DNA of 64,000 nucleotides from Escherichia phage ESCO13. Location of the stretch: the sequence record NC_047770.1. One strand, 5' to 3'. Both the position numbers and the translations under genes were made by a program. The notes under the pieces are model-generated. The model did not search any database. It saw only the letters and a program-made list of their open reading frames with translations, and was not told the DNA's origin. The stretch's first letter is position 1; each line of letters starts with the position of its first letter. Of this stretch, positions 20,229 through 33,639 are shown one piece after another.

Positions 20229-20235
20229 ACTTCAC

Positions 20236-21183: not shown

Positions 21184-21856
21184 GTGCCAGTGCCTCCTCA
21201 TAAGAAATTCGGATTTTCCCATTTTTAATATCTTCTAAAGACGCTTTATATTCTTCCCAGTTAATGCCAATAGCAGCTTCTTTCTCTTCTTTTGTCAGAT
21301 TAGCAAAAGGCATAGGATTGTTTCCAAAAACATCGTCTGGGTGGATATAAGCCATGATACGAAGTGGACAAGGTATTGCCTGAATGCCCTGATTCAAACC
21401 AGCAGCTTTCAAACGGTGTACCCATTCAGCATCTTCAAAACCATAGCCGTGAGTGTAAGGGCGGAAATAACCCATCTTCTCAACAACGGCACGAGAATAC
21501 ATTGCAAATTGACACATTGCAAGTTCCCAGAGAATAACTTCTCCTTTACTCCCAACAACTTTATCTTTGAAATACTCCGGCATACCAAAGAAATCCCATC
21601 CTCCAGAGACAGCTTGATCTACAAAATATGTTTCCCATCCCTCCATGATTGGGTAGCAATCGTCGTCAAAAATAAACCAATAATCATAACCTTCTTCATA
21701 AAACTGGTGCATAAGTTCATTCCTGGCGTAAGCTACACCTTTACGATCTGGATCGTTGAATACTCGAAAATCTGCATGTGGATCTGTTACAAGATAGTCT
21801 TTAAGTGGACGGACACCTACAGTGATAACACCCACTCCGATTTTAATATTTTCCAT
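21173..21856 (-). CDS. GT-A fold glycosyltransferase (DxD type)
   Basis: 227 aa; WFIFDDDCYP (DxD) and GYGFEDAEW motifs. Confidence 0.55.
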   Translation of the reverse strand: MENIKIGVGVITVGVRPLKDYLVTDPHADFRVFNDPDRKGVAYARNELMHQFYEEGYDYWFIFDDDCYPIMEGWETYFVDQAVSGGWDFFGMPEYFKDKVVGSKGEVILWELAMCQFAMYSRAVVEKMGYFRPYTHGYGFEDAEWVHRLKAAGLNQGIQAIPCPLRIMAYIHPDDVFGNNPMPFANLTKEEKEAAIGINWEEYKASLEDIKNGKIRISYEEALAHVK

Positions 21857-21864
21857 TTTCTCTC

Positions 21865-22428
21865 CTAGATAGTTTTACTGTGATCGTGACAGTGTAATAA
21901 ATGATGTATAGACCGTTGAGGATTTGTTTGACCTAATCTGTAAATGTGAAACAGATACATTCCCCGCATCAATCCTAACCTTTTTCCTTTTTCATGTAAA
22001 GTGCGAGAGAAAATTAGGTCGAATTGGATAGATTTTTCTTCGAAAGGAATTTCATTCCACAATGATTTTCTAAAAAGCAAAAAGAAACCTGCCAGAGGTG
22101 TTCCGAAAGGAACTTCTTCAACACTCACTTTATGATATTCTCTTGCAATCTTAGCATATTCTATATGGTTTAGAATATTTGGATCATCGTTAATTTGGTT
22201 AGAGAAAAGCTGATAACCACTACCTAACCTGTTACAAGTTGCACCTATTACATCAAAAGGCGGGTTTGACATAATAAGCTCTTCAAGCATAGATGGTTGA
22301 TCAGGCAGGAGGAACATTGTATCGGTATCTCTTAAGCACACCCAACTATCATCTGGAAGAACGGCAATAGCTTCATTGATAGCCTTGCCGATATTTCCTG
22401 TCAGATAGGGAGTAATATAATAAATCAT
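21865..22428 (-). CDS. putative glycosyltransferase-like protein
   Basis: 187 aa; LRDTDTMF DxD-like motif; fourth member of the tandem block. Confidence 0.4.
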   Translation of the reverse strand: MIYYITPYLTGNIGKAINEAIAVLPDDSWVCLRDTDTMFLLPDQPSMLEELIMSNPPFDVIGATCNRLGSGYQLFSNQINDDPNILNHIEYAKIAREYHKVSVEEVPFGTPLAGFFLLFRKSLWNEIPFEEKSIQFDLIFSRTLHEKGKRLGLMRGMYLFHIYRLGQTNPQRSIHHLLHCHDHSKTI

Positions 22429-23130: not shown

Positions 23131-23652
23131 TTAACTCCCCTTTGGTAGATAGAAACCATGCACTTTATCTCGATAAACAAGACGCATATCACGCTCCCAG
23201 TGTGTCCTTATATTCCGTTTCTTGAAGTATAGAGCACCTTTAGTAACATCTAAAACAGACCGCAATTCAGGAAAATGTTTCTCTAAATAAAGTAAACGCT
23301 CCGCTATTGCTTTTGCTTCCTGCCACTTATCTTTCTCTGTCACGTTAAAAGTTTTCGCATATGAGAATTGCCCTTTCTGGAACAAGACTCCCTTGACTGT
23401 GTTAGGGAAGTAGGCATCATTTCTTCTGTTGATTACCACATTCCCAACGGCATTCATTCCTTTTTTACCCAGACCGCGACCTTCTGCGTAAATTGCACAA
23501 GCTAATAGAATTTTATCATTATATTGCTTTGTACATTTGTGAACTACTTTAGCGGTTTTTACGTTTGCAGCTTCGGCTTTCGCCACAACAGGTGTAAATG
23601 TAAAAGCAGTTAAGGATAGTAACGCAACTGTTACAAAGTTTTTTATCAGCAA
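23131..23652 (-). CDS. secreted cell-wall hydrolase (SleB/Hydrolase_2-like)
   Basis: 173 aa; signal peptide MLIKNFVTVALLSLTAFTFTPVVAKA; AIYAEGRGLG...GMNAVGNVVINR motif; TTG start after RBS AAGGAGG. Confidence 0.65.
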   Translation of the reverse strand: MLIKNFVTVALLSLTAFTFTPVVAKAEAANVKTAKVVHKCTKQYNDKILLACAIYAEGRGLGKKGMNAVGNVVINRRNDAYFPNTVKGVLFQKGQFSYAKTFNVTEKDKWQEAKAIAERLLYLEKHFPELRSVLDVTKGALYFKKRNIRTHWERDMRLVYRDKVHGFYLPKGS

Positions 23653-23684
23653 ATTTTGCCTCCTTTTTAAGTTAACGAACTTCT

Positions 23685-23713
23685 AGTATAACACGATAGA
23701 GGCTTTATTGCAA
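23685..23713 (-). promoter_or_regulatory. sigma70-type promoter TTGCAA-N17-TATACT
   Basis: Minus-strand promoter just downstream of the TerD stop; adjacent G-rich hairpin GAGGGGG-ACTTCTC-CCCCCTC at 23714-23734. Confidence 0.45.
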
Positions 23714-23752
23714 GAGGGGGACTTCTCCCCCCTCAAAATCATTTGTTAATTA

Positions 23753-24355
23753 TTATGGACATTCATACCATTCTTTTTTACCACCGAAGGCCATCACCAC
23801 ATCGCAAATATCCAGACCAGCTTTACCTACACCATATGCTTTCAGCTTCCATTCTCCATCTTCACGAACCAGGGAAGCCACGTGGCAGATTGTGTTGCCA
23901 GCTACTTCAGGAGCCAGGAAGTCAAAATCCAGAATTTCCACATTGCGCTCGGAGTCGAAGATTTTAAGCATACCTTCAGAAGCATGACCAAAACGTTTCA
24001 GACCTGTATCATCATCAATGGTCAGAACAAAGGCAATCTCTTGTGCATCAGGAGAGATTTTAGCCAGAGTAATATCAATCTGCTCCATGCTGCCAGTTCC
24101 ATCACGAACATCGTCACCAGCGAAGGTAGAACGTTCAGGATCAAACTTGTTAGCATAGCAAACCAGATGACGTGCAGATAGCATTTCAGGATTGCCAGCG
24201 GCATTGTGACGACAAACCAGTGCACTTACATCCAGATCCAGTTTAGAATCAGATTTCCAAGAGAATTCCAGACGCAGTTCTTTCAGAGCCGGAGCAACTT
24301 TCTTCAGGGAAATTTTTTCGCTAGAACCTTTTTTCAGGGAAATTTTATCAGTCAT
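23753..24355 (-). CDS. terD: TerD-family stress protein
   Basis: 200 aa; N-terminal doubled ISLKK motif, DLDVSA, GDDVRDGTG, FVLTIDD and GEWKLKAYG segments follow the TerD domain pattern. Confidence 0.75.
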   Translation of the reverse strand: MTDKISLKKGSSEKISLKKVAPALKELRLEFSWKSDSKLDLDVSALVCRHNAAGNPEMLSARHLVCYANKFDPERSTFAGDDVRDGTGSMEQIDITLAKISPDAQEIAFVLTIDDDTGLKRFGHASEGMLKIFDSERNVEILDFDFLAPEVAGNTICHVASLVREDGEWKLKAYGVGKAGLDICDVVMAFGGKKEWYECP

Positions 24356-24370
24356 CTTTTGTCTCCTCTA

Positions 24371-24640
24371 TTATTTAAGTGTAATACCAGTTACAGTCAA
24401 TTCTACTTCCAAAAGCTTAGATGTGTTTTGGATTGATACTAATTGTGCATGATGGTTTAGTTCTACAGCAGAATAATCATTTTCCCCATCATCTACTTTT
24501 AAATAAACAATGATTTCACTAAGGTCTAAACCATTTTCGTCAAATGCATTTTCATAGACGAAAGTATCTCCTACATCCAAATCTTTAATGGTAAGGCATC
24601 GTTTATTTACTTTTTGCTCATCAATTTCGAAGTTTAACAC
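24371..24640 (-). CDS. hypothetical protein (paralog of 25662-25940)
   Basis: 89 aa; shares DLDVGxTF.Y..A..E.GLD and (V/L)E(V/L)TVTGITLK-type C-terminus with the paralog. Confidence 0.5.
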   Translation of the reverse strand: MLNFEIDEQKVNKRCLTIKDLDVGDTFVYENAFDENGLDLSEIIVYLKVDDGENDYSAVELNHHAQLVSIQNTSKLLEVELTVTGITLK

Positions 24641-24869
24641 TTCTTCCTCCTAATGTTATCTCCGGTTTGTATATACGAAGAATTATAGCATTTTCATTTT
24701 CTTTGTCAACCCATTCTTCATAATCAGGCCATACATGAATCTCTACTCTACTTACAATATCTTCCATTCGCACAGTCCCAATGAAATACTCTTTGAGACT
24801 GCGCATAATGAAAGCTTCTCTCTCGCGCCAATAATTTTCTATGACTTGAGAGGCAAGCTCGTCGATCAT
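24621..24869 (-). CDS. hypothetical protein
   Basis: 82-aa ORF; ATGA-type overlap with the upstream gene. Confidence 0.5.
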   Translation of the reverse strand: MIDELASQVIENYWREREAFIMRSLKEYFIGTVRMEDIVSRVEIHVWPDYEEWVDKENENAIILRIYKPEITLGGRSVKLRN

Positions 24870-25660
24870 TTTTTAGCACCTACTTTAACAACCCACTCTC
24901 CGAACTCTTCAGATAAGAGTTTGTCATAAAGCTCTGAATCTGTCAAGTCTAAATCTTTAATGCCAATAAAACCAACATTATCATAAGCATTTGCCAGTTC
25001 TTTCAGGAAGCCAAACTTCTCATTACCAACGCCAACCATGAACCAATAAATAGGTTTATTCTTATTCTCTTCAATAAGACGACGAACAGCACTAGGATCA
25101 CCATTCTCACCATCCGTCTGGAAGAATACAACACCAGGGGTAACGTCAGCACCTGGTTCAGACACAGCTACAACCTTTTCACGCTCTACAGATACTGTTT
25201 CAGTTTTACCAAGCAGACGATTAAAGAAGCCTTTCTTTGGAGCCTCCTCTTGTACCACTTGTTTAGTGGTAATATATTTGGTAACAGTGCCAAAATACTC
25301 ATCGTAGATATCTGCCATTACAGGGGCGTAATTTGTTCCACCTCCGATACGAACATTACGCATACATTTACCAACATAGTCATCGTAAACGTCTGCTGTT
25401 GCTGGAGTAAGCTCTTGGGAACTCGTATTGAAGGCCCACATATCAATTTGTTGATTATCGTCGAACAGCATACCAAAAGGAAGCAGTTTACCTACAAAAT
25501 CACTCACTACCCCACTAGAATATAGACCATGCATACTACCAGAAATATCTAGAGCACATGCTACACGAAGAACAATCTTACCTTCATTCAGGTTCTTATT
25601 CTTTTTCAGAGAGAAAGCAAGGTTTTCTTGACGTTTTTTCAGGCTGATTTTCTCGGACAT
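24866..25660 (-). CDS. vWA-domain protein (TerY-like)
   Basis: 264 aa; MIDAS motif ALDISGSM; N-terminus MSEKISLKK echoes the TerD N-terminus. Confidence 0.65.
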   Translation of the reverse strand: MSEKISLKKRQENLAFSLKKNKNLNEGKIVLRVACALDISGSMHGLYSSGVVSDFVGKLLPFGMLFDDNQQIDMWAFNTSSQELTPATADVYDDYVGKCMRNVRIGGGTNYAPVMADIYDEYFGTVTKYITTKQVVQEEAPKKGFFNRLLGKTETVSVEREKVVAVSEPGADVTPGVVFFQTDGENGDPSAVRRLIEENKNKPIYWFMVGVGNEKFGFLKELANAYDNVGFIGIKDLDLTDSELYDKLLSEEFGEWVVKVGAKK

Positions 25661-25661
25661 A

Positions 25662-25940
25662 TTATTTCTCCTTCTTAAGTGTAATATTGGTAACTTCTAA
25701 ATCTACTTCCACCATATTTGTATCTGGTGGGATGCAATGAGTATAGCCTCGTTGTGCTAGTGATCCATTAATACAAATCGCACTGTTTGTGGAATTTTTA
25801 ATGAACACCAAGTTACGGTAGGTATCCAACCCTGCGTCTTCATAGGCATCATAATACATGAATGTGGCCCCTACGTCAAGATCTTCGAAAGCAATAGGTA
25901 AATCCTGACTTTTTTCTTCTTGAATATTGAATCTAAACAC
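25662..25940 (-). CDS. hypothetical protein (paralog of 24371-24640)
   Basis: Probable GTG start at 25940 after RBS GAGGAGG; the track ATG at 26006 would overlap the upstream gene by 74 nt. Confidence 0.45.
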   Translation of the reverse strand: MFRFNIQEEKSQDLPIAFEDLDVGATFMYYDAYEDAGLDTYRNLVFIKNSTNSAICINGSLAQRGYTHCIPPDTNMVEVDLEVTNITLKKEK

Positions 25941-26496
25941 GCATACCTCCTCTACCAATTTTGAAGCCCAAATCGTAAGCTTCCTTAGTGATCTTTTGTA
26001 ACTCACTTATAGGAAGTGTTACAAGAGGATCATCTTCTTCAATTTCCATCTTGTCATCTTCTGTTTCAATGAGAGTATTATGCACTTTGTGATAAGGGTT
26101 GTCAACACGTTTAAACTTATTCTTTTCTGTGCTGAAAAAACAATCTGGATCTTCTTCGCCATCACCCCAACCTTGGTTAGGATCTCCGTCAGATTGTTCT
26201 GTAGGGATTTCACCTGTAAAATACTCTTCCAGCACCATAGCGATACCATCCCTTGGATTCGAGGAATGCATTAAATCACAAACCTTACCCCAATCCATAG
26301 CCCATTCGAACCGTTCACGAACGCCATTTTCATCCTCCTTTCCAGAGAAAACACAACCATAACTATCATAGTTGCCATACATCTCTTCAATAACAACACC
26401 GTCCTTCAAAAGAAAGAGATAACAAGGTGATCCGTCGAAAGAAGTAGAAAGGGCAGCTTTGCCCGATTCTTTGCACAAAAAGCTAAAACAACCCAT
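25933..26496 (-). CDS. hypothetical acidic protein
   Basis: 187-aa ORF. Confidence 0.5.
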   Translation of the reverse strand: MGCFSFLCKESGKAALSTSFDGSPCYLFLLKDGVVIEEMYGNYDSYGCVFSGKEDENGVRERFEWAMDWGKVCDLMHSSNPRDGIAMVLEEYFTGEIPTEQSDGDPNQGWGDGEEDPDCFFSTEKNKFKRVDNPYHKVHNTLIETEDDKMEIEEDDPLVTLPISELQKITKEAYDLGFKIGRGGMRV

Positions 26497-26699
26497 TACA
26501 AACCCTCCTTCAGATTATCAAGAGCTACAGTGGTTTCACAAAATTCTCCATAAGCTTTATGATGTTCCAGAAAAGCTTCGGGTCCACCCCAATCATTGTC
26601 TTGTGTATTCCAGCCATCAATAAAAGCATCTTCAATGATTGTGATCAGTTCTTGTCGGGTTAACTGGATAATATTAGGGTCGTTATCGTAGTTAAACAT
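26496..26699 (-). CDS. hypothetical protein
   Basis: 67-aa ORF. Confidence 0.5.
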   Translation of the reverse strand: MFNYDNDPNIIQLTRQELITIIEDAFIDGWNTQDNDWGGPEAFLEHHKAYGEFCETTVALDNLKEGL

Positions 26700-26865
26700 C
26701 CTCTTCCTCCTCTAAAATATGGAACCCGTAATTACAATAGTCCTGAAAGGTTTCGTGTGCAAGATCTTCTATATCCTCTTGAGACATATCATCTTCAATT
26801 TCGATATCCACAACCTCATTGCATCCACACCAAGCAGTTTCAATATTCACTCGTAATATTTTCAT
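26692..26865 (-). CDS. small hypothetical protein (below the ORF-track cutoff)
   Basis: 57-aa ORF MKILRVNIETAWCGCNEVV...; TAATG overlap with the upstream stop, RBS GAGGAG, 8-nt overlap with the next gene. Confidence 0.35.
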   Translation of the reverse strand: MKILRVNIETAWCGCNEVVDIEIEDDMSQEDIEDLAHETFQDYCNYGFHILEEEEDV

Positions 26866-27065
26866 TACTCCTCCTCCTCCTCATTGAAGTCAATATCTGC
26901 AAGGAGTTCGAATTTACGGAAGTTACGACAACCTTCATAAATATAACAATCACGACAAACTGCTAGAACACTTGGGGGATATATGCCTCCCATCGGCGCG
27001 AATCGTTTTTCGTCATCATAACGGACACCAATGTCCTCATCAATTATATAGATACGGATTCTCAT
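26865..27065 (-). CDS. hypothetical protein
   Basis: 66 aa; ATGA overlap with the TelA-like gene. Confidence 0.5.
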   Translation of the reverse strand: MRIRIYIIDEDIGVRYDDEKRFAPMGGIYPPSVLAVCRDCYIYEGCRNFRKFELLADIDFNEEEEE

Positions 27066-28174
27066 TTACCAAGCCCTCGTTTCACAGCAGCTACCATCCC
27101 GTCTTCCAAAGATTGAACTTCATTAATATAATCAACACGAGCAGCACGGGCTTCCGTATTGATGCGGTTAGTTTCTTCCAACATCTTAACCAAGTTTTCC
27201 TGATCGTGACGCAGAGTTTCAATATCCAACACTTGACGGTTAGCCAGTGCTGCTGCTTCGATCTGATTCTGTGTGGCAAGATCGCTACCCAGTTTAATTG
27301 CCAGGTTAAATTCATCAAGAACGTTATTCTGCGTCTCTGCTGCTTTCATTTGACGTAAGCTCTCGATATACATTGAGAAGTTAGCAGAGTAAGCAGGAAT
27401 AACATTATTTACTATGTTACGCGCAGATCGCATTAAGCTTGCAGAAACTTTTTGCATACCTTGTACACGCGGTCCCATTTGGACACACAGTAGGCGCAAT
27501 GCTTTTAAATCTGCAATACGAATCTCCAGAAGATCCAAAGTATCTCGGATCACTTGTCGCTGTTCTACTGCATCTTCTGGAAGAGCAGCCAAAGCTTGTT
27601 CTTCTTTTTCATAGGTTGCTGTTAGAAGCTGCATATCTCGGTTCAAACTTGCAGCATATTGTCCAATAGCTTGATGTAGCTTTTCAAGATATACCAAGGA
27701 ATCTTCTTCTTTGCGAATATCCATTTGAAGGTTTTTTACCAACTCTTCAATACGGTTATTAACATTATCAAACTCCCCAAACAGATCTTCTTTCATACCC
27801 ATAACTTTTTTAATGAGTTTAGTAATACCCTTGCTTTGTTTAATAGAGTTTGGATCAAGTTGTTTTGCCTGTTTAATCAAAGCTGTGAGTCGTTCACTCA
27901 TCTGATCGCCTTGATTACTACGTTGATGTTTTAATACCTCGGCATTCAAGGAACGCAAGGTTGTTCCTGCCTCTGCCCCAATCTCTTCGATCTCTTGTCG
28001 GGTCATAGAAGGCAAAACTGGAACTTCTTGCGGTGCCGCTGGTGCATAAACAGGACTGGCATCTAACACGCTTGGAGCGAATACAGATTTACTTGCATCT
28101 GTTGTTGCAGCAAATACGCTCATTTCAGGCTTCTTCTGACCGCCAGTAGCTGCTTTTAAAAATGGACTTGTCAT
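27062..28174 (-). CDS. telA: TelA-like (toxic anion resistance family) protein
   Basis: 370 aa, all-helical, coiled-coil-rich; size and composition fit TelA/KlaA; sits next to the TerD, vWA and TerC genes. Assignment by context, not a verified domain hit. Confidence 0.45.
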   Translation of the reverse strand: MTSPFLKAATGGQKKPEMSVFAATTDASKSVFAPSVLDASPVYAPAAPQEVPVLPSMTRQEIEEIGAEAGTTLRSLNAEVLKHQRSNQGDQMSERLTALIKQAKQLDPNSIKQSKGITKLIKKVMGMKEDLFGEFDNVNNRIEELVKNLQMDIRKEEDSLVYLEKLHQAIGQYAASLNRDMQLLTATYEKEEQALAALPEDAVEQRQVIRDTLDLLEIRIADLKALRLLCVQMGPRVQGMQKVSASLMRSARNIVNNVIPAYSANFSMYIESLRQMKAAETQNNVLDEFNLAIKLGSDLATQNQIEAAALANRQVLDIETLRHDQENLVKMLEETNRINTEARAARVDYINEVQSLEDGMVAAVKRGLGK

Positions 28175-28761
28175 TCTTCATTCTCCTCTTCTGCATCTCT
28201 TATATATGGTGAAACACCGTACTCTTTAGCTACTTTAACCCAATCGTCCCATTTATACAACCATAATTTTCCTTCGGTCCCTTCTTTATCTGATTTCAAC
28301 CACATATTAGGTTGCTTACCTGGGTACATGCGATTAGGTTTACGATTATAACCTCTAACACATCTTGTCGCAAACCTATCTACCAGAACAAGAACATATT
28401 TATATTCGTGGTTCAACGGCTCTTTGGAAGTGGCTTTAGGATTAGCCCCTAACTCTGCTGCCAGTTTTTGCCAATGAGCACCGTGTCTACTAAACTTACC
28501 CATACAACCATCAATAGCATGAGCAATTTCGTGCTTCATTGTATCCACGATCATATCTCTTGTAGAGTTCTTATGCAAGTGCCAATTTACAACAACAATT
28601 TTATCTCGGTAGTTGCACCAACCGAAAGAGTTATTCACTTTGTTTCTAACACAAGCTTTATATCCTGCTTCACGTAACATGTTGTAGTAAACAGGAAAAT
28701 CTTCTTTTATTTCCTGCATCACTTCCCACCACAAGAGTTGCAAGTCTCTCTCGGTATACAT
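28171..28761 (-). CDS. SprT-like zinc metallopeptidase
   Basis: 196 aa; HExxH motif MKHEIAHAI plus downstream His/Cys. Confidence 0.5.
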   Translation of the reverse strand: MYTERDLQLLWWEVMQEIKEDFPVYYNMLREAGYKACVRNKVNNSFGWCNYRDKIVVVNWHLHKNSTRDMIVDTMKHEIAHAIDGCMGKFSRHGAHWQKLAAELGANPKATSKEPLNHEYKYVLVLVDRFATRCVRGYNRKPNRMYPGKQPNMWLKSDKEGTEGKLWLYKWDDWVKVAKEYGVSPYIRDAEEENEE

Positions 28762-28764
28762 AAC

Positions 28765-29358
28765 TTACACCTTAAAAGTGAAATGCGTGGTCGTGGTTTC
28801 AAAATCAGGACCAGATAAACGTGCACTGAAATCTGAAATATTTGTAATTAAAAAGCTTTTATGCATACCTAACACAGCTACGCTTTCAATATCTTCTACT
28901 AACATTTCAACCATGTTAGAAACATGGCTGAACGTAGAGTTTTGTTTTTTGATGGTGTAGAAAGAAAGATTCCCACCTGCTGTATAAGATACCTCTTCAA
29001 AATCTTTAATCGTATATTGTGTGCCATCAGTAAAGAAAATGGTAGCTTTATTAGTAGCACGTTTCTTGTTTTTTGGTCCTTTTTTACGTTTACTGCGAGT
29101 AGGCAAACCGTTTGGGAACACCATAGCTACAAATTCTTCAGCAGAAACCTCCTTACCGAAATCATAACCATAAGAAACAGCGTCTATAAACTCGTCATCT
29201 TCATTTTTAAAATAATGGAAATAGGGCCAATTTGAAAGATTATCAAGCATCTTATGCTCGTCCACAGCAGAGAATGTATCCCTCAAAGCGCGTGTGATTT
29301 GCAAAGCATTAGGCAACCTTTTAACACCTACGATGGAAGTACGAATAGAAATTGTCAT
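28765..29358 (-). CDS. hypothetical protein
   Basis: 197-aa ORF. Confidence 0.5.
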   Translation of the reverse strand: MTISIRTSIVGVKRLPNALQITRALRDTFSAVDEHKMLDNLSNWPYFHYFKNEDDEFIDAVSYGYDFGKEVSAEEFVAMVFPNGLPTRSKRKKGPKNKKRATNKATIFFTDGTQYTIKDFEEVSYTAGGNLSFYTIKKQNSTFSHVSNMVEMLVEDIESVAVLGMHKSFLITNISDFSARLSGPDFETTTTHFTFKV

Positions 29359-29372
29359 TGTTTTTCTCCTTA

Positions 29373-29810
29373 TTAACGTCGCTTGCTACGAGATGAACTC
29401 TTTTTACTTAAAGGGCTATTGTAAGATTTACGAGTTGTATAGCTACTATTTGTTTTAAAAGTTTGTCTCGGCTTTTCATAAGTTTTTATCTCTTGTTTAG
29501 GCTTACTATAAAAATTAGTTTTCGGTTTAGGTGTATTATAATGCTTATTAATAATCGTTCTGTTATCGTTATAATCCCCACTGCTACGATTACTACCGCC
29601 ACTCATCATATGCCCTAACAACATACCTGTAGCAAACTCACCAACACCGCTACTACTAGAACCGCCACCATTGTTGATAATAGTTGTATCTCCGTCAGAT
29701 CCTTGTTGAGCGTATTGTTGAGGAGGTTGTTGGTATTGTGCAGGATTTGTTTCATCCTCGCAAGCTGTTAAAAAGATACAACCAATTAAAATCAGGGCTA
29801 GTTTTTTCAT
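29373..29810 (-). CDS. lipoprotein with Gly-zipper segment
   Basis: Start moved to MKKLALILIGCIFLTAC (lipobox LTAC; RBS GAGGA); GMLLGHMMSGG glycine zipper; basic C-terminus. Confidence 0.55.
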   Translation of the reverse strand: MKKLALILIGCIFLTACEDETNPAQYQQPPQQYAQQGSDGDTTIINNGGGSSSSGVGEFATGMLLGHMMSGGSNRSSGDYNDNRTIINKHYNTPKPKTNFYSKPKQEIKTYEKPRQTFKTNSSYTTRKSYNSPLSKKSSSRSKRR

Positions 29811-29997
29811 ATTTGCTTTCCTCGTTTTGGCTATTAATACATCTGTGTTTGAAATCTCCAGAGAAGCAATAAAGTTGCTCTCCATCTCGGTATAAACTCA
29901 CTTTACTGCCGTTGATTACGCTTGTCAATACAAAAATTACAACAAACAACCCTATTGCAAAACAAATATTTTCAAACACAACCAACAAGTATTTCAT
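29752..29997 (-). CDS. small membrane protein
   Basis: 81 aa; N-terminal TM helix; ATGA overlap with the upstream gene; 3-prime end overlaps the lipoprotein start. Confidence 0.4.
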   Translation of the reverse strand: MKYLLVVFENICFAIGLFVVIFVLTSVINGSKVSLYRDGEQLYCFSGDFKHRCINSQNEESKYEKTSPDFNWLYLFNSLRG

Positions 29998-30344
29998 TTT
30001 AAAAATACCTCATCATCAGTTTCATTATCCCAGAAGAACAAGTCCCAACCATTCGGATCATTCCATTTAGCTGCTGGAGAAGTCCATATTTGCTCGATAT
30101 CAATATTCAAAACTTCACCGTTTCGTTTTGAAACAGCTTTAGTTAATTCCCAACGGGATACAGGCTCCACTTCCCCTGAACCACTCCCACAACAAGCTAC
30201 CACATTAGGAGGCAAATTAATTGGATCTTTGGTCACGATCATAACGCTTACCCCAGGGTAAACTTTTGAAAGATAATCTAAAACGTAATCCACATCACCA
30301 GATAAATCCCAAACAAGTTCTTGAATTTCATCAAAATTACTCAT
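29994..30344 (-). CDS. hypothetical protein
   Basis: 116-aa ORF. Confidence 0.5.
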   Translation of the reverse strand: MSNFDEIQELVWDLSGDVDYVLDYLSKVYPGVSVMIVTKDPINLPPNVVACCGSGSGEVEPVSRWELTKAVSKRNGEVLNIDIEQIWTSPAAKWNDPNGWDLFFWDNETDDEVFLK

Positions 30345-30386
30345 AAGTCTCTCCTATAAAATAGCCTCCCGAAGGAGGCTCATTTA

Positions 30387-31361
30387 TTAAACAGTAGCTT
30401 CTTCTTTTTCAGGGAAGATAAAGCTTGCAATAACACCAAGAGATAATGTGCCTAGAACAATCATCAGACTTACGTTAGGGGAAATATCATGCGGGAGGAA
30501 TGACCACTTGGCATGAAGTGTTTCACCGAACGGGTGATACATAAGTTTAGCACCAACAAACACCAGAACCACAGCAACAGCTTTCTCTAAGTGAACCAGA
30601 TATTTCACAGCTACACTTAACACAAAGAAAAGTGCACGTAAACCAAGAACAGCCATCAGCATTGCAGAATAAACTAGCAGAGGTTCTTGTGTCACACCGA
30701 TCACAGCCGGAACTGAATCAAAAGAGAAGACAATATCTGTAAGCTCAATAACAAACACACAAAGAAGAGCAGGAGTTGCATATTTAATACCATTCTTAAT
30801 GGTGATGAACTTTTCACCATCCAGTGCATTGTGCACAGGCAGAACTTTACCTACTAAACGAACAGCCCAATGTTTAGAGTAATCAATATCCTCTTCTTCG
30901 TCACCACCTTTGATGATAGCCACGGCAGACCAAGCTACAATCAAACCGAACAACACTTGGACCGACCAATGAAGGTTAAACAAAGCGGTCCCTGCTGCAA
31001 CAAAAATACCTCGGAAGACAATGGCTCCTGCAATCCCCCAAAGTAGAATCTTATGTTGGAGATGTGTGCTCTTAATTCCAAAGCTTGCAAAAATTGCCAT
31101 GAACACCATTAGGTTATCTACAGAAAGACTCTTTTCCAACACATAGCCACTTAGGAAAAGCGCGGCAAACTCTTTACCATGTTCTACCCAAATGAATGCG
31201 TAATACCCTAAAGCTAAAGCAATCCAAAAAACAGACCAAAGCAAAGCAGATTTAATTCCAATTTCTTTATTCTCTTTATGACCAAAGAAATCGATACCAA
31301 TAGACAATGCTAAAATACCAACTAAAACAACTACATCAATAATTGGGAAACCGAGTTGCAT
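30387..31361 (-). CDS. terC: TerC-family integral membrane protein
   Basis: 324 aa, multi-TM; hallmark segments LEKSLSVDNL and ELTDIVFSFDSVPAV. Confidence 0.85.
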   Translation of the reverse strand: MQLGFPIIDVVVLVGILALSIGIDFFGHKENKEIGIKSALLWSVFWIALALGYYAFIWVEHGKEFAALFLSGYVLEKSLSVDNLMVFMAIFASFGIKSTHLQHKILLWGIAGAIVFRGIFVAAGTALFNLHWSVQVLFGLIVAWSAVAIIKGGDEEEDIDYSKHWAVRLVGKVLPVHNALDGEKFITIKNGIKYATPALLCVFVIELTDIVFSFDSVPAVIGVTQEPLLVYSAMLMAVLGLRALFFVLSVAVKYLVHLEKAVAVVLVFVGAKLMYHPFGETLHAKWSFLPHDISPNVSLMIVLGTLSLGVIASFIFPEKEEATV

Positions 31362-31378
31362 TCTTTTCTCCTCTCTTT

Positions 31379-31437
31379 GCGGGGAACTATTCCCCGCTTC
31401 ATGTGATATATCTTACTCTTTTTAAGAACTATGTCAA
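31379..31437 (-). promoter_or_regulatory. promoter plus 5-prime hairpin cassette upstream of terC (minus strand)
   Basis: Minus strand reads TTGACA-N16-TAAGAT-ATATCACATGAA-GCGGGGAACTATTCCCCGC then RBS GAGAGGAG and ATG; same architecture as the plus-strand cassettes at 53-63 kb. Confidence 0.55.
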
Positions 31438-31440
31438 CAC

Positions 31441-31662
31441 TTATTTTGTTGAATGAGAGGAAAAGATTCCTCGTAATACCGCCAAAATAAACGAAACACA
31501 AACCACGGTCCAGAAGGTTACTGGGACAGTGATATCTGCATGACCCATAACTTCAGCAACATAGTTGTAAGCCAGCAACAGTAACCAAGCTGGAATCAAA
31601 CTAAGCATAAAAGCAATAACAAAAAAGCTTACCACTGCAACAATACCTGCAAAAACACCCAT
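31441..31662 (-). CDS. small membrane protein
   Basis: 73 aa, two predicted TM helices. Confidence 0.5.
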   Translation of the reverse strand: MGVFAGIVAVVSFFVIAFMLSLIPAWLLLLAYNYVAEVMGHADITVPVTFWTVVCVSFILAVLRGIFSSHSTK

Positions 31663-31674
31663 ACTAATCTCCTC

Positions 31675-32148
31675 TTAAAGTTTATAAATAGTCACATCGT
31701 GACCTGTTTTTACTAAAGTTTCTTCAATCATCACTTGGATGATAGCCCAATTACCTCCGGCATGTCCCGCTCCAATCATAGGTAAACCGATCTTACATTT
31801 TTGGTCACGGAGAAGCAAATCATTAGCCATAGCTATTAGTGCATCGTAAAGTGCATCATAGTCCAACTGACGACCTTTAGCATTGTATCCGTAACGGTAT
31901 TGCCCGTATAGATTATATACCAAAGGGTCTGATTGTTCGTCTGGCACCCCTAAACTAAAAGAACCTAACTTACTTTGATCACCAGCCATTGTGTCTAAAT
32001 CTGCCGCATATGCATAAGGGAATGCTCGTTTAATTTGCGGAGCAATTCCTGCTCCCATATTACACATACAATTGCAACAATGAGCAATAACAGTTACTTC
32101 ACCTGCTTTAGCGGCATCAATAAGATTACCTGTTTTCATTTTAAGCAT
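31675..32148 (-). CDS. macro-domain protein (ADP-ribose binding/processing)
   Basis: Start moved to the ATG at 32148 (RBS AAGGAG); GNLIDAAKAGEVTVIAHCCNCMCNMGAGIAPQIKRAFP matches the macro-domain N-terminal signature. Confidence 0.7.
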   Translation of the reverse strand: MLKMKTGNLIDAAKAGEVTVIAHCCNCMCNMGAGIAPQIKRAFPYAYAADLDTMAGDQSKLGSFSLGVPDEQSDPLVYNLYGQYRYGYNAKGRQLDYDALYDALIAMANDLLLRDQKCKIGLPMIGAGHAGGNWAIIQVMIEETLVKTGHDVTIYKL

Positions 32149-32161
32149 TTTTAGCTCCTTA

Positions 32162-32989
32162 TTACAGAATGTGTTGTTTTGTGTAACGATCCAAGAATTC
32201 AAAGTTTTCAGCATACTTTGAAATTCGGTTGTAACCTTCTCCCAAACATCCGAAGAAAAGTTGCTCTACATAGTAGTGTGGCAATTGGCTAAGAATGATT
32301 TTGAAGTCTTCGTGATTTTGGCCCATAAGATACTTAATAGGACGAACAAGACACTGTGCATCACGTTCTTCATTAATCATTTTAACAAACGCTTCTGGTG
32401 TATTGATGTAGTTAAAATTCAGTTTAGCTTCAGTATCTGCTTGATTACCTTCATATTTTGCAAAATACAAGAAGTAAACATCATTTTTAACTTGATTTTC
32501 ATCAAGAATCTCAATCAGTTTGTCTTCATGAGTTCCGGTGATATTTACATCATCAATGAACACAAGCTTCTTATCACCCCAGAATTCTTTGTTGCAGTAG
32601 AATGTATCCCCATCAATAAGTTTCTTACGACTAGCTTTATCCAAGAAACCATAATCGTTGATATAGCTAACTTTACGATGAATAATATCCAGTTCTGCTG
32701 AACGACCTTGATCATATTGTGCTTGCAACATATTAAAGTAATTAATAAAATGATCTGTCATCATTGTTGCAGCATTGTGCACATGGTTATAAGGAGAAGG
32801 GATGATAACAAATTGTTCCCCAATATGTTTCATTGCCACTTGAGCAAAAAACTGAAGTGCCAATTCTTTACCCATACGACGCGCAGCTTGGTTACTACCA
32901 AATTTCAATTTTGAATAGTCTTTGATATCAAAAGTAGCAGTTTCCAGGTCATCAAATTTATTTGCAAAAATTTGAGTTTGATTACGCAT
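32162..32989 (-). CDS. phosphoribosyltransferase-like protein
   Basis: 275 aa; PRPP-binding-like motif KKLVFIDDVNITGTHEDKL. Confidence 0.5.
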   Translation of the reverse strand: MRNQTQIFANKFDDLETATFDIKDYSKLKFGSNQAARRMGKELALQFFAQVAMKHIGEQFVIIPSPYNHVHNAATMMTDHFINYFNMLQAQYDQGRSAELDIIHRKVSYINDYGFLDKASRKKLIDGDTFYCNKEFWGDKKLVFIDDVNITGTHEDKLIEILDENQVKNDVYFLYFAKYEGNQADTEAKLNFNYINTPEAFVKMINEERDAQCLVRPIKYLMGQNHEDFKIILSQLPHYYVEQLFFGCLGEGYNRISKYAENFEFLDRYTKQHIL

Positions 32990-33638
32990 TTACAATTTCT
33001 CCTCTTTTAAGTTTCTCTAGTAAATCGTTAGGGTTCTTAATATGACAGAAGTTAATCCCTATGTCAACACATTTACCATCAAATTCTTCGCTGTCCCCAA
33101 CATGTAAAATCTCTTCAGCCTTCAAAGGAATGCTTGAATATGTGGCGGTCCTAACAAAGAATCTAGGATCTGGTTTACATAACAGATGTTCGTCTGAAAA
33201 ATGCATAAATTCAAAACAATTCCAACTGTCGAACATACAAGCACGACGCAAAATATCCCCAGATATAAAATTAGTATTGCTTTTAATACTAAGATCATAT
33301 TTACCAGACAAGTATAGCAAACAAACTGGCAAATCTAAAGCGATATGTGGAGGAAATTTAAGAAACCATTGCTCACACTCAAAACGCATTTGTGCAGATT
33401 CTACAGGGGTTAAACCTATCTTTCTTCCCAACATATTCCATGCATATGCTACACCTTCTGCACACCCATTTAGTGCAGCATTATCCATAATTTCTTTGGC
33501 ATCTTTATATGCTTCTTTTGCCGCACGTTCAGACATTCTACCATATGTAGCAATAGTGTGCGTACGTGCATCTGCATAGTTTTGATTGGCAGAAATAAGA
33601 GTATTCCATACATCAAAAGAAATATGTTTTATTGTCAT
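32982..33638 (-). CDS. HAD-superfamily hydrolase
   Basis: Start moved to MTIKHISFDVWNTL; motifs FDVWNT, KPDPRFF and GDSEEFD. Confidence 0.6.
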   Translation of the reverse strand: MTIKHISFDVWNTLISANQNYADARTHTIATYGRMSERAAKEAYKDAKEIMDNAALNGCAEGVAYAWNMLGRKIGLTPVESAQMRFECEQWFLKFPPHIALDLPVCLLYLSGKYDLSIKSNTNFISGDILRRACMFDSWNCFEFMHFSDEHLLCKPDPRFFVRTATYSSIPLKAEEILHVGDSEEFDGKCVDIGINFCHIKNPNDLLEKLKRGEIVNA

Positions 33639-33639
33639 A

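What the first reader, a model, noticed from the sequence alone, without database searches (positions are those of the whole stretch)
23753..31437. Phage-borne Ter-like stress cluster: TerD, vWA (TerY-like), TelA-like and TerC, with paralogous companions
Within about 8 kb of one operon-like block lie a TerD-domain protein (doubled ISLKK motif), a vWA protein with MIDAS motif DISGSM and a TerD-like N-terminus, a 370-aa helical TelA-like protein and a TerC membrane protein (LEKSLSVDNL, TDIVFSFDSVPAV). They are interleaved with a SprT-like HExxH peptidase, a secreted SleB-like wall hydrolase, a lipoprotein and two paralogous small proteins. In bacteria, ter genes form stress-response and phage-resistance-associated systems whose mechanism is unresolved. 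A virulent phage carrying its own set suggests it is manipulating membrane, metal or Ca2+ stress, or mimicking or countering a host Ter-based defence.
Basis: partly seen in the sequence, partly recalled or inferred. Interest (0 to 1): 0.75.

Follow-up and report, generated by a model that had tools for sequence, protein, structure and literature searches.

The report
Known Ter stress module in phage
The flagged genes really are a TerC–TelA–vWA(TerF-type)–TerD "tellurite-resistance-like" membrane and metal stress module carried by a phAPEC8-like virulent E. coli phage, but the module is already annotated in GenBank and discussed in the phage literature, and what it does for the phage has never been tested.

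Summary
Pfam places four minus-strand genes in Ter families: TerD (23753-24355, E 3e-28), vWA-TerF-like (24866-25660, 2e-37), TelA (27062-28174, 3e-33) and TerC (30387-31361, 3e-40). The SprT-like peptidase, SleB-like hydrolase, lipoprotein and two small paralogs are also real.

The window is a Phapecoctavirus, 99.6% identical to vB_EcoM-Ro121lw. Several GenBank records already name these genes TerC, TelA-like, TerD or VWA. Phage-borne Ter systems were described by Iyer et al. 2021 and noted in phiKp34, PhiPsa374 and phi92.

- The module extends upstream to a Ter-associated PRTase_3 plus HAD pair (32162-33638).
- The vWA protein is TerF-type, not TerY-type.
- TerC belongs to the Alx subfamily and keeps all five residues needed for Mn2+ export in E. 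coli Alx. It has its own host-type promoter and terminator and no riboswitch.
- Near-consensus sigma70 promoters precede the two small-paralog/vWA and small-paralog/TerD pairs.
- The four-part core recurs in at least three unrelated phage lineages, with three different TerC subtypes.
- TerB, extra TerD paralogs and the TerY-P kinase and phosphatase are absent.

Most likely role (inferred, not shown): a membrane complex made early in infection that handles cations and protects the infected cell against superinfecting phages, colicins or membrane damage. Novelty: already known. Interest: modest.

The parts
30387..31361 (-). TerC, Alx-subfamily integral membrane protein (324 aa)
   Evidence: Pfam TerC E 3e-40. 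NCBIfam TIGR03718 TerC/Alx scores 318.6 bits against a cut-off of 246.4. It is 51-56% identical to bacterial Alx proteins. E. coli Alx residues E86, D92, E213, D216 and D222 are all invariant in the alignment; their role in Mn2+ export comes from PMC10197570.
31410..31437 (-). sigma70-type promoter of terC (TTGACA-16-TAAGAT)
   Evidence: The promoter scan gives 10 of 12 matches. The same site is annotated as a 'putative host dependent promoter' in phAPEC8. The sequence was read.
31379..31397 (-). 8-bp perfect hairpin in the terC 5' UTR (GCGGGGAA-TAG-TTCCCCGC); there is no riboswitch
   Evidence: The hairpin was read directly from the sequence. Rfam at gathering thresholds finds no family anywhere in the window.
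30363..30380 (-). intrinsic terminator immediately after the terC stop codon
   Evidence: A 7-bp stem with 5 G-C pairs followed by a T-rich tail.
27062..28174 (-). TelA-family protein (370 aa, helical, with a low-complexity N-terminus)
   Evidence: Pfam TelA E 3e-33, covering residues 59-361. tblastn finds relatives in 221 phage records. No solved relative is found by sequence.
24866..25660 (-). standalone vWA protein of the TerF C-terminal type, with an intact MIDAS motif and a TerD-like N-terminal ISLxK...SLxK segment
   Evidence: Pfam vWA-TerF-like E 1.6e-37. D38, S40, S42, T109, D183 and the N-terminal segment are conserved in 9 phage and prophage homologs. There is no PADLOC TerY-P hit.
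23753..24355 (-). TerD-domain protein (200 aa); the only TerD domain in the genome
   Evidence: Pfam TerD E 3e-28. It aligns to 2KXT and 3IBZ. Its Ca2+ loop is a variant, GDDVRDGTGxxE, against the canonical GDNRTGEGDGDDE. It is single copy.
25662..25940 (-). small paralog B (92 aa, GTG start), directly upstream of the vWA gene
24371..24640 (-). small paralog A (89 aa, GTG start), directly upstream of terD
   Evidence: phrog_11278. It is 34% identical to paralog B over its full length. The family is tiny: 6 representatives among 1.8 billion proteins.
24682..24709 (-). perfect sigma70 consensus promoter (TTGACA-16-TGcTATAAT) upstream of small paralog A and terD
   Evidence: 12 of 12 matches with an extended -10 TG. 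A 12/12 site occurs in 1.7% of dinucleotide shuffles.
26077..26105 (-). near-consensus sigma70 promoter (11 of 12) upstream of small paralog B and the vWA gene
   Evidence: three sites with at least 11 of 12 matches lie on the coding strand and none on the other strand. Shuffles give a mean of 0.42, and 0.7% of shuffles reach three or more.
32162..32989 (-). PRTase_3 (ComF-like phosphoribosyltransferase), the Ter-associated 'nucleoside-like metabolite' enzyme
   Evidence: Pfam PF15610 E 6e-42. The PRPP loop VFIDDVNITGT is visible in the sequence. It sits beside a HAD gene in nearly all annotated rows listed among 155 phage records. It stays near the Ter genes even after a rearrangement (L009). 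Its role in Ter systems is described in PMC7824862.
32982..33638 (-). HAD-superfamily hydrolase paired with PRTase_3; motif I is FDVWNTL, with Trp replacing the usual Asp at the +2 position
   Evidence: NCBIfam HAD-IA subfamily hits and a weak Pfam Hydrolase hit. D9, W11, T13, K155, D182 and D187 are invariant in four lineage members.
31675..32148 (-). TARG1/DarG-class macrodomain between PRTase_3 and terC (membership in the module is uncertain)
   Evidence: Pfam Macro 22.8 bits. PADLOC DarG 2.6e-10. PDB hits 5e3b (1e-12), 5m31 DarG and OARD1. It is conserved in phi92, where it directly follows the PRTase_3 gene (gp185 after gp186).
28171..28761 (-). SprT-like HExxH metallopeptidase (variable companion, absent from phi92)
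   Evidence: Pfam SprT-like E 4e-9. There is no homolog in the phi92, L009 or L011 loci.
29373..29810 (-). lipoprotein (145 aa, lipobox LTAC) (variable companion)
   Evidence: The sequence MKKLALILIGCIFLTAC is read. The start follows the EF1-1 annotation. It is weakly conserved in phi92 (36% identity).
25933..26496 (-). orf187: N-terminal ~135 aa is a very highly conserved and widespread phage domain of unknown function (not Ter-specific)
23131..23652 (-). secreted SleB-like cell-wall hydrolase that follows terD in every relative examined
   Evidence: Pfam Hydrolase_2 E 2e-17. It lies downstream of TerD in the window, phi92, L009 and L011, directly or after one gene. It is an accessory gene in 877 phage records. 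The genome has a separate lysozyme and spanin.

Best explanation
Shown: this is the Ter module of a phAPEC8-like (Phapecoctavirus, Stephanstirmvirinae) virulent E. coli phage. Its conserved core is four proteins: an Alx-type TerC inner-membrane cation transporter, a TelA helical protein, a standalone TerF-type vWA protein with an intact MIDAS metal site, and one TerD-domain protein. A Ter-associated PRTase_3 and HAD enzyme pair lies nearby. The core genes sit in the replication and nucleotide-metabolism arm of the genome, behind host sigma70-type promoters. terC is its own unit, with a promoter, a 5' hairpin and a terminator, and it lacks the Mn2+ riboswitch that controls bacterial alx.

Inferred: host RNA polymerase expresses these proteins soon after infection. 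They assemble at the cytoplasmic face of the inner membrane, with TerC in the membrane and TerD, vWA and TelA beneath it. There they change divalent-cation flux (Mn2+, Zn2+ or Ca2+) and envelope properties. The result would mirror what bacterial ter operons do for cells: the infected cell becomes refractory to superinfecting phages, pore-forming colicins and other membrane insults until the phage is ready to lyse it. The PRTase_3/HAD pair may make or modify a nucleoside-like ligand for the system. The SprT-like peptidase, the lipoprotein, the small SH3-like paralogs and orf187 are lineage-specific companions and not core parts.
For: Family assignments. Phage identity and prior annotation.

The four-part core recurs in unrelated phage lineages. 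It forms a tight TelA-vWA-TerC-TerD cassette in Caulobacter and Brevundimonas Dolichocephalovirinae, and a TelA-x-vWA-TerC-TerD cassette in Pseudomonas Otagovirus. The TerC slot is filled by three different subtypes: Alx, DUF475 and short TerC. This argues for selection on the ensemble.

Within the lineage, the order TerC..TelA..vWA-TerD is kept even when vWA identity falls to 46-51%, while the genes in between are swapped.

The TerC transport residues are intact and the MIDAS motif is intact.

Host-type promoters and a terminator are present and are significant against shuffles.

Bacterial precedent: insertions in terC, terD or terZ abolish phage inhibition and colicin resistance, TerC-TerD is the minimal functional unit, and a K. 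pneumoniae terC deletion loses Zn, Mn and phage resistance (PMC12054061). Superinfection exclusion has been proposed for phage Ter systems (PMC7824862).

Small membrane proteins and a lipoprotein sit in the same block, as is typical of exclusion loci.
Against: No experiment on any phage Ter gene was found. The authors of the PhiPsa374 paper state that the function is unknown and that tellurite resistance is unlikely.

TerB and the TerZ, TerA and TerE paralogs needed for full bacterial phenotypes are absent. The TerD Ca2+ loop is a shortened variant that has lost two Asp residues. PADLOC recognises no defence system here.

TerC is far more conserved than its partners (86% identity against 29-53% for the others in L009). 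This would also fit a stand-alone metal-export role.

Early expression is predicted from promoter motifs only. The HAD enzyme lacks the Asp+2 acid/base residue of typical phosphatases, so the proposed nucleotide-to-nucleoside step is uncertain.
Confidence: 0.5

Rival explanations
1. Metal-homeostasis auxiliary function. The phage TerC/Alx exports Mn2+ (or Zn2+ or Ca2+), or metalates exported proteins, and so tunes the ionic milieu for phage enzymes during infection. TerD, vWA and TelA would act as cytoplasmic metal sensors or regulators of the transporter. Exclusion of other phages would not be the selected function.
For: TerC scores above the curated cut-off of the Alx subfamily. All five residues required for Mn2+ export in E. 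coli Alx are invariant. TerC is the most conserved gene of the module (86% identity in L009 against 29-53% for the others) and is 51-56% identical to cellular Alx proteins. It has lost the Mn2+/pH riboswitch and gained a constitutive host-type promoter. Bacterial TerC confers Zn and Mn resistance. TerD and the vWA MIDAS site are metal-binding modules.
Against: The TerC subtype is interchangeable between phage lineages while TelA, vWA and TerD stay. That is hard to explain if one particular transport specificity were the point. Some phages keep TelA alone (PBECO4 and RaK2). No metal-dependent phage enzyme is linked to the block.
Confidence: 0.25
2. Counter-defence that protects membrane integrity, a functional analogue of T4 rIIA/rIIB. 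The Ter complex would keep the inner membrane energised when host abortive-infection effectors, or the host's own Ter system, try to depolarise it. This would prevent premature death or lysis of the infected cell.
For: In the sister subfamily Vequintavirinae, the homologous SleB-like hydrolase is followed directly by rIIA and rIIB. In Stephanstirmvirinae the same hydrolase follows the Ter genes. The complete Phapecoctavirus genome has no detectable rIIA or rIIB, and neither does the Ter-bearing Otagovirus phiPsa347. The rIIA query used is sensitive: it finds 2,879 phage records. Bacterial ter confers resistance to pore-forming colicins.
Against: Most phages lack rII anyway (2,879 of 50,697 records), so its absence in two lineages is weak evidence. 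A Caulobacter phage (CcrRogue) carries rIIA, and Ter operons are reported in Caulobacter jumbo phages, so there may be no anticorrelation. The positional parallel could be coincidental synteny. There is no sequence or fold similarity between Ter proteins and rII.
Confidence: 0.12
3. Passenger genes of bacterial origin with no selected role in the lytic cycle (a neutral moron), or genes that give the host classical tellurite resistance.
For: The interleaved genes are highly variable. The ter genes are common cargo of mobile elements and prophage-like islands.
Against: The four genes are kept intact, with their catalytic and metal motifs, in more than 120 Stephanstirmvirinae genomes and in three other phage lineages. 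Their closest relatives are on phage-sized contigs down to about 45% identity, not in the E. coli host (33% identity to E. coli Alx). The phage is virulent, so a host-benefit trait has no time to pay off. The published view is that an incomplete ter set is unlikely to give tellurite resistance.
Confidence: 0.05

Closest known systems
Phage-encoded Ter systems described by Iyer, Anantharaman, Krishnan, Burroughs and Aravind 2021 (Viruses 13:63, PMC7824862): Acinetobacter phage ME3 with PRTase+HAD+Ter, and Caulobacter jumbo phages with TerD/TerC/TerF/TelA
   Same: The component set is the same: TerC, TelA, TerF-type vWA and TerD, plus a PRTase and a HAD. The hosts are also large virulent tailed phages. 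That paper explicitly mentions 'certain other related smaller tailed phages'.
   Different: The present phage is about 150 kb and is not a jumbo phage. Its Ter genes are spread over 8 kb and interleaved with lineage-specific genes, instead of forming a tight cassette (compare L004 and L006). Its TerD has a variant Ca2+ loop.
Ter genes annotated in Stephanstirmvirinae genomes (phi92 gp172/173/178/182; phAPEC8 gp214 'TerC'; EF1-1, DE16 and UP17 records)
   Same: These are orthologous genes in the same order, with 67-81% (phi92) to 100% protein identity.
   Different: The differences are minor. phi92 lacks the SprT-like gene, orf116, orf82, orf201 and the second small paralog.
Ter clusters of Klebsiella phage phiKp34 (PMC8386662) and Pseudomonas phage PhiPsa374 / Otagovirus (PMC9796965)
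   Same: Both have terC, terD, terF-type vWA and telA in a virulent phage, with function stated as unknown.
   Different: They belong to different phage lineages. The Otagovirus TerC is the short 223-aa type. No PRTase_3 hit was found in the complete phiPsa347 genome, which instead has a Prs-like plus NAMPT pair nearby.
Bacterial terZABCDEF operon (IncHI2 R478, E. coli O157, Klebsiella plasmids)
   Same: The TerC and TerD families are shared, and TerF contributes the vWA type found here. TerC-TerD is reported to be the minimal functional unit. The bacterial phenotypes include phage inhibition, colicin resistance and metal resistance.
   Different: The phage has one TerD domain where the bacterial operon has five or six paralogs. 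It has no TerB, TerW, TerX or TerY. Its vWA protein stands alone instead of being fused to a TerD domain. TelA comes from a different bacterial locus type (klaA/telA or yceH). The phage genes are driven by simple host-type promoters.
E. coli Alx (TerC-family Mn2+ exporter under a yybP-ykoY riboswitch) and B. subtilis yceCDEFGH (TerD x3, TerC, TelA)
   Same: The phage TerC meets the Alx subfamily model and keeps E86, D92, E213, D216 and D222. From general knowledge, the B. subtilis operon also combines TerD, TerC and TelA.
   Different: The phage TerC is only 33% identical to E. coli Alx. It has no riboswitch. It has phage-specific partners.

Membership tests
Ter-dependent stress response system (terZABCDEF type, as defined by Anantharaman et al. 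2012 and Iyer et al. 2021) | A TerD-domain protein is present | tested here: met
   PF02342 scores 98.9 bits against a cut-off of 25.3. The protein aligns over its full length to 2KXT.
Ter-dependent stress response system (terZABCDEF type, as defined by Anantharaman et al. 2012 and Iyer et al. 2021) | A TerC-family integral membrane protein is present | tested here: met
   PF03741 scores 138.3 bits. TIGR03718 scores 318.6 bits, above its cut-off.
Ter-dependent stress response system (terZABCDEF type, as defined by Anantharaman et al. 2012 and Iyer et al. 2021) | Several TerD paralogs (TerZ, TerA, TerD, TerE, TerF) | tested here: not met
   There is a single TerD-domain gene in the window and in the complete genome of a 99.5%-identical relative (tblastn). 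The vWA protein keeps only a ~20-aa N-terminal segment resembling TerD.
Ter-dependent stress response system (terZABCDEF type, as defined by Anantharaman et al. 2012 and Iyer et al. 2021) | A TerB-domain protein | tested here: not met
   Pfam scans of every ORF from 23131 to 34245 listed give no TerB hit.
Ter-dependent stress response system (terZABCDEF type, as defined by Anantharaman et al. 2012 and Iyer et al. 2021) | Linked enzymes for a nucleoside-like metabolite (a PRTase plus a HAD phosphoesterase) | tested here: met
   PRTase_3 (PF15610) has E 6e-42 and sits beside a HAD-IA-like protein. The pair is conserved across phages and stays near the Ter genes after a rearrangement. The ATP-grasp and C-C lyase members were not found among the ORFs scanned.
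Ter-dependent stress response system (terZABCDEF type, as defined by Anantharaman et al. 2012 and Iyer et al. 2021) | Canonical bipartite Ca2+-binding loop of TerD (GDN(R/L)TGEGDGDDE) | tested here: inconclusive
   The DLD motif and D82, G86 and E91 are kept, but the loop reads GDDVRDGTGSME, which is shorter and lacks two Asp residues. This variant is conserved across Stephanstirmvirinae, whereas the other phage TerDs aligned keep a loop close to the canonical motif.
Ter-dependent stress response system (terZABCDEF type, as defined by Anantharaman et al. 2012 and Iyer et al. 2021) | Confers tellurite resistance, phage inhibition and colicin resistance | not testable with these tools
   This needs expression and deletion experiments. 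No published test on phage Ter genes was found.
TelA (toxic anion resistance protein, PF05816) | Profile match above the curated threshold over most of the domain | tested here: met
   115.7 bits against a cut-off of 30; residues 59-361 match profile positions 13-327 of 332.
vWA-TerF-like (PF10138) | Profile match plus an intact MIDAS motif (DxSxS...T...D) | tested here: met
   130.1 bits against a cut-off of 29.4. D38, S40, S42, T109 and D183 are invariant in 9 homologs.
TerY-P anti-phage triad (TerY vWA + PP2C phosphatase + Ser/Thr kinase) | All three components are adjacent and match the PADLOC TerY-P models | tested here: not met
   PADLOC gives no hit for the vWA protein or any neighbour. 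No kinase or PP2C phosphatase is found in the block.
Alx subfamily of TerC (Mn2+ exporter) | Subfamily model above its cut-off, and the five acidic transmembrane residues required for Mn2+ export | tested here: met
   TIGR03718 scores 318.6 bits against a cut-off of 246.4. E86, D92, E213, D216 and D222 are invariant; their role is documented in PMC10197570.
Alx subfamily of TerC (Mn2+ exporter) | A yybP-ykoY Mn2+ riboswitch or pH-responsive leader upstream | tested here: not met
   Rfam at gathering thresholds gives 0 matches in the window. The leader is only about 40 nt long and contains a simple hairpin.
Alx subfamily of TerC (Mn2+ exporter) | Mn2+ export activity | not testable with these tools
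   This requires complementation of an mntP mutant or direct metal measurements.

The most novel reading that the evidence does not exclude
The Ter block may be the functional replacement, in Stephanstirmvirinae, for the rIIA/rIIB 'membrane-integrity protectors'. In the sister subfamily Vequintavirinae, rIIA and rIIB lie beside the same SleB-like hydrolase gene. Under this reading, the phage-made TerC/TelA/vWA/TerD complex, possibly tuned by a PRTase_3/HAD-derived nucleoside-like ligand, keeps the infected cell's membrane energised against depolarising abortive-infection effectors, colicins and superinfecting phages. That would give the long-enigmatic Ter system a concrete and testable mechanism in a tractable E. 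coli K-12 phage model.
Probability: 0.12. Interest if true: 0.65.

Novelty: already known. Interest (0 to 1): 0.3.

Why it matters
How Ter systems work has been unresolved for about 30 years. A compact phage version could be a simpler handle on the problem than the large bacterial operons. It has one TerD, one TerC, one vWA protein and one TelA, sits behind simple host-type promoters, and occurs in phages that infect E. coli K-12 (BASEL-collection relatives and phage nieznany). If the module excludes other phages or protects the membrane, that would matter for phage-cocktail design, because Phapecoctavirus phages are popular therapy and biocontrol candidates. It would also clarify what 'tellurite resistance' genes in phage genomes mean for safety assessments. 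As a finding in itself it is not new: the genes are annotated, and their presence in phages has been discussed in print.

Tried and rejected
- **TerB or further TerD paralogs.** Pfam scans of all ORFs between 23131 and 34245, plus tblastn against the window and a whole related genome, found none.
- **TerY-P or any other known defence system.** PADLOC gave no Ter-related hit. It gave only a DarG-like macrodomain and an odd 'AbiEi' model match for orf201.
- **A Mn2+ riboswitch before terC.** Rfam found nothing.
- **A MoxR partner for the vWA protein.** The nearby AAA ATPases of phi92 and nieznany, and the Vequintavirus 'MoxR', give only generic AAA hits, so this idea was dropped.
- **Function of the small paralogs from structure.** They have a generic SH3-like beta-barrel fold with Z no higher than 5. 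A weak sequence match to Ig-like repeats of a 1445-aa protein was not informative.
- **The SleB-like hydrolase as the endolysin, and a lysis-timing model.** This was weakened because the genome has a separate lysozyme and spanin elsewhere and because the hydrolase is an accessory gene in T5-like and rV5-like phages.
- **Ter versus rII complementarity.** rII is absent in two Ter-bearing lineages, but the base rate of rII is low and Caulobacter phages may have both, so this was kept only as a low-probability reading.
- **Primary papers.** Anantharaman et al. 2012 (PMC4104200) and Frampton et al. 2014 (PMC3993152) could not be read. Their content is cited only through papers that were read.
- **TelA structure.** phmmer against PDB sequences found no relative, and no alignment admissible for structure prediction was available.

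Full report
**1. What is there**

All genes between about 10 kb and 46 kb of the window lie on the minus strand.
- TerD, 23753-24355: E 3e-28, 98.9 bits.
- vWA-TerF-like, 24866-25660: E 1.6e-37.
- TelA, 27062-28174: E 3e-33.
- TerC, 30387-31361: E 3e-40.

TerD aligns over its whole length with the solved Klebsiella TerD structure 2KXT. The companion genes are also real:
- A SprT-like HExxH peptidase at 28171-28761.
- A secreted SleB-like Hydrolase_2 protein at 23131-23652, just outside the stated coordinates.
- A lipoprotein with lipobox LTAC, whose likely true start is at 29810.
- Two small paralogs. Both fall in phrog_11278 and align end to end. The second one starts at the GTG at 25940 and is 92 aa long, as phAPEC8's annotators also concluded.

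**2. Where it comes from**

The 7.7-kb block is 99.6% identical to Escherichia phage vB_EcoM-Ro121lw and 98-99.6% identical to dozens of phAPEC8-like phages. These belong to the genus Phapecoctavirus, subfamily Stephanstirmvirinae. Sixty records cover at least 80% of the block.

Several depositors already label these genes 'integral membrane protein TerC', 'TelA-like protein', 'TerD family protein', 'VWA domain-containing protein' or 'tellurite resistance'. The 2012-era phi92 record calls the orthologs 'membrane bound tellurium resistance protein', 'stress / toxic anion resistance protein' and 'stress protein'. No integrase is annotated anywhere in a complete genome that is 99.5% identical in this block, which fits a virulent lifestyle.

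**3. The module is larger than flagged, and its core is smaller**

Upstream of terC lie three more genes:
- A TARG1/DarG-class macrodomain at 31675-32148.
- A PRTase_3 phosphoribosyltransferase at 32162-32989 (PF15610, E 6e-42).
- An overlapping HAD-family hydrolase at 32982-33638.

PRTases and HAD phosphoesterases are the 'nucleoside/nucleotide derivative' arm of Ter systems, as summarised by Iyer et al. 2021 (PMC7824862). The PRTase_3/HAD pair is adjacent in the annotated rows listed among 155 phage records. In a divergent relative (L009) the pair has moved to the other side of the Ter genes but stays within a few kb of them.

The interleaved genes, by contrast, are not conserved partners. 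phi92 lacks the SprT-like gene, orf116, orf82, orf201 and one small paralog. Two metagenomic relatives, with vWA identity of 46-51%, keep the order TerC..TelA..vWA-TerD-(x)-SleB-like hydrolase. They fill the gaps with an RNA ligase or with dTDP-sugar enzymes.

Identities between the window and L009 are uneven: TerC 86%, TerD 53%, HAD 52%, PRTase 49%, vWA 46% and TelA 29%.

**4. The same four parts recur in unrelated phages**

TelA homologs occur in 221 phage records. In the Caulobacter and Brevundimonas giant siphoviruses, TelA-vWA-TerC-TerD forms a tight four-gene cassette. In Pseudomonas Otagovirus the order is TelA-x-vWA-TerC-TerD. A Neobacillus prophage carries TerD-vWA-TerC.

The TerC slot is filled by three different subtypes:
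- Alx-type here and in the Brevundimonas phage.
- DUF475-type in CcrBL9.
- A short 223-aa TerC in Otagovirus.

This kind of non-orthologous replacement within a conserved ensemble argues that the ensemble is the selected unit. The jumbo phages PBECO4 and RaK2 have TelA alone.

**5. State of the individual parts**

*TerC.* It scores above the curated cut-off of the TerC/Alx subfamily (318.6 bits against 246.4). It is 51-56% identical to chromosomal Alx proteins of Pasteurellaceae and other bacteria, but only 33% identical to E. coli Alx. All five acidic residues shown by mutagenesis to be needed for Mn2+ export by E. coli Alx (E86, D92, E213, D216, D222; PMC10197570) are invariant in the phage proteins.

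*vWA protein.* It keeps the full MIDAS motif, and so do all eight homologs aligned with it. All nine share the N-terminal 'ISLxK...SLxK' segment that resembles the first strands of TerD. The protein is TerF-type, not TerY-type: PADLOC's TerY-P models do not match, and there is no kinase or PP2C phosphatase nearby.

*TerD.* It keeps the DLD motif and several loop residues. Its Ca2+ loop, however, is a lineage-specific shortened variant, GDDVRDGTGxxE against the canonical GDNRTGEGDGDDE. Its metal binding is therefore uncertain.

*Absent parts.* No TerB domain and no second TerD domain exist in the block or in the whole genome of a close relative.

*HAD enzyme.* It has the nucleophile Asp but an invariant Trp at the Asp+2 position (FDVWNTL). 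This is atypical for HAD phosphatases.

**6. Expression signals**

terC has its own sigma70-type promoter at 31437-31410, which phAPEC8's authors annotated independently as a host-dependent promoter. Its leader is short, with a perfect 8-bp hairpin. An intrinsic terminator follows 7 nt after the stop codon. Rfam finds no riboswitch, although bacterial alx genes are riboswitch-controlled.

A perfect consensus promoter with an extended -10 element lies at 24709-24682, just upstream of small paralog A and terD. An 11-of-12 site at 26105-26077 lies upstream of small paralog B and the vWA gene.

Three sites with at least 11 of 12 matches fall on the coding strand and none on the other strand. Dinucleotide shuffles give a mean of 0.42 such sites, and 0.7% of shuffles reach three. 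The block is therefore several transcription units, probably read by host RNA polymerase, and not one operon. The timing of expression is inferred from these motifs and has not been shown.

**7. Most likely function**

The following points rest on bacterial experiments reported in the literature:
- Insertions in terC, terD or terZ abolish phage inhibition and colicin resistance.
- TerC-TerD is reported to be the minimal functional unit.
- A K. pneumoniae terC deletion loses Te, Zn, Mn and phage resistance (all from PMC12054061).
- Alx exports Mn2+.

Iyer et al. proposed that phages use Ter systems against superinfecting phages. Putting this together with the anatomy above, my preferred model is as follows. 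The four proteins are made early and form a membrane-associated complex that handles cations. This complex alters ion flux and envelope properties, so that the infected cell resists secondary phages, pore-forming colicins and similar insults. I give this a confidence of about 0.5, and that figure includes the near-certain identity component.

The main rival is a plain metal-homeostasis role centred on TerC (about 0.25). It is favoured by TerC's exceptional conservation and intact transport residues. It does not explain the co-conservation of TelA, vWA and TerD, or the interchangeability of TerC subtypes.

A more novel reading (about 0.12) is that the block is a functional analogue of rIIA/rIIB. 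In Vequintavirus the homologous SleB-like hydrolase is followed by rIIA and rIIB. The complete Phapecoctavirus and Otagovirus genomes have no detectable rII, using a query that detects 2,879 phage records. The base rate of rII is low, however, and Caulobacter phages may carry both systems. This remains a lead and not a result.

A neutral-passenger or tellurite-resistance role is unlikely, given the conservation across lineages and the virulent lifestyle.

**8. Comparison with what is known, and novelty**

The closest known thing is exactly this: the phage-encoded Ter systems catalogued in PMC7824862. Closely related are the Ter clusters noted in phiKp34 (PMC8386662), PhiPsa374 (PMC9796965) and the phi92 and phAPEC8 annotations.

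Relative to the bacterial terZABCDEF operon, the phage set is a reduced version. It has a single TerD, no TerB, a standalone TerF-type vWA protein and an added TelA.

I rate the finding 'already known'. The additions made here are refinements that do not define a new kind of system:
- The extension to PRTase_3, HAD and the macrodomain.
- The Alx subtype of TerC with intact export residues and no riboswitch.
- The promoter and terminator architecture.
- The variant TerD loop.
- The separation of a conserved core from variable companions.
- The TerC subtype swapping between lineages.

Interest is modest (0.3). A specialist would not be surprised by the genes. Even so, the system is a convenient and untested entry point into the long-standing question of how Ter systems work.

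**9. Limits**

Two primary papers could not be read. The afdb50 fold library was unavailable. Promoter calls are consensus matches only. Structure-based searches did not assign functions to orf187 or to the small paralogs.

Noticed in passing
[not shown]
   Followed up: partly
window 31675-32148 (-): A TARG1/DarG/SCO6735-class macrodomain sits between PRTase_3 and terC. It is conserved in phi92 (gp185) and has a 41%-identical homolog in Otagovirus beside a Prs-like plus NAMPT pair. It could remove ADP-ribose from DNA or protein (an anti-DarT role), or it could process an ADP-ribose-like metabolite.
   Followed up: partly
L010 9404-13928; L002 4772-8713; L004 24628-27146: In three unrelated (pro)phages, Ter genes lie near NAD+-salvage or NAD+-reconstitution genes. 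A Neobacillus prophage has TerD-vWA-TerC followed directly by a Prs-like gene and NAMPT. Otagovirus has Prs and NAMPT about 3.3 kb upstream of telA. CcrBL9 has NadM and NAMPT about 6 kb downstream of terD (about 8.6 kb from telA). The Phapecoctavirus genome has neither gene, and has PRTase_3/HAD/macro instead.
   Followed up: partly
L013 7371-12690 compared with window 23131-24355: In Vequintavirus JeffSchatz the SleB-like hydrolase homolog is flanked by an AAA ATPase ('MoxR') and by rIIA and rIIB. In Stephanstirmvirinae the same hydrolase follows TerD. No rIIA or rIIB is detectable in the whole Phapecoctavirus genome or in the Otagovirus genome.
   Followed up: partly
window 33640-34245 (-): orf201 has no Pfam or NCBIfam hit, but it matches two PADLOC 'AbiEi' models over their full length (E 5e-13). 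It contains an HLTL motif reminiscent of 2H phosphoesterases. It is absent from phi92.
   Followed up: no
window 32982-33638 (-): The PRTase-linked HAD enzyme has an invariant Trp instead of Asp at the +2 position of motif I (FDVWNTL) in all four lineage members aligned. This is unusual for a HAD phosphatase and may indicate a different chemistry.
   Followed up: partly
window 19329-22428 (-): Four glycosyltransferase genes lie in a row, immediately downstream of the Ter/SleB region: two GT-B paralogs that are 42% identical, plus two GT-A-like genes, one with a weak TET-associated glycosyltransferase hit. They are conserved in phi92, L009 and L011. Their target (DNA, LPS or protein) is unknown.
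   Followed up: no
window 23131-23652 (-): The SleB-like hydrolase has a cleavable Sec signal peptide and is annotated 'endolysin' in some records. The genome, however, also encodes a separate lysozyme and an Rz-like spanin elsewhere, and homologs of this hydrolase are accessory genes in T5-like and rV5-like phages. It is probably not the main endolysin.
   Followed up: partly
window 31441-31662 and 29752-29997 (-): Two small predicted membrane proteins (73 aa and 81 aa) flank terC and are conserved in phi92 (60% and 49% identity). Their function is unknown.
   Followed up: no
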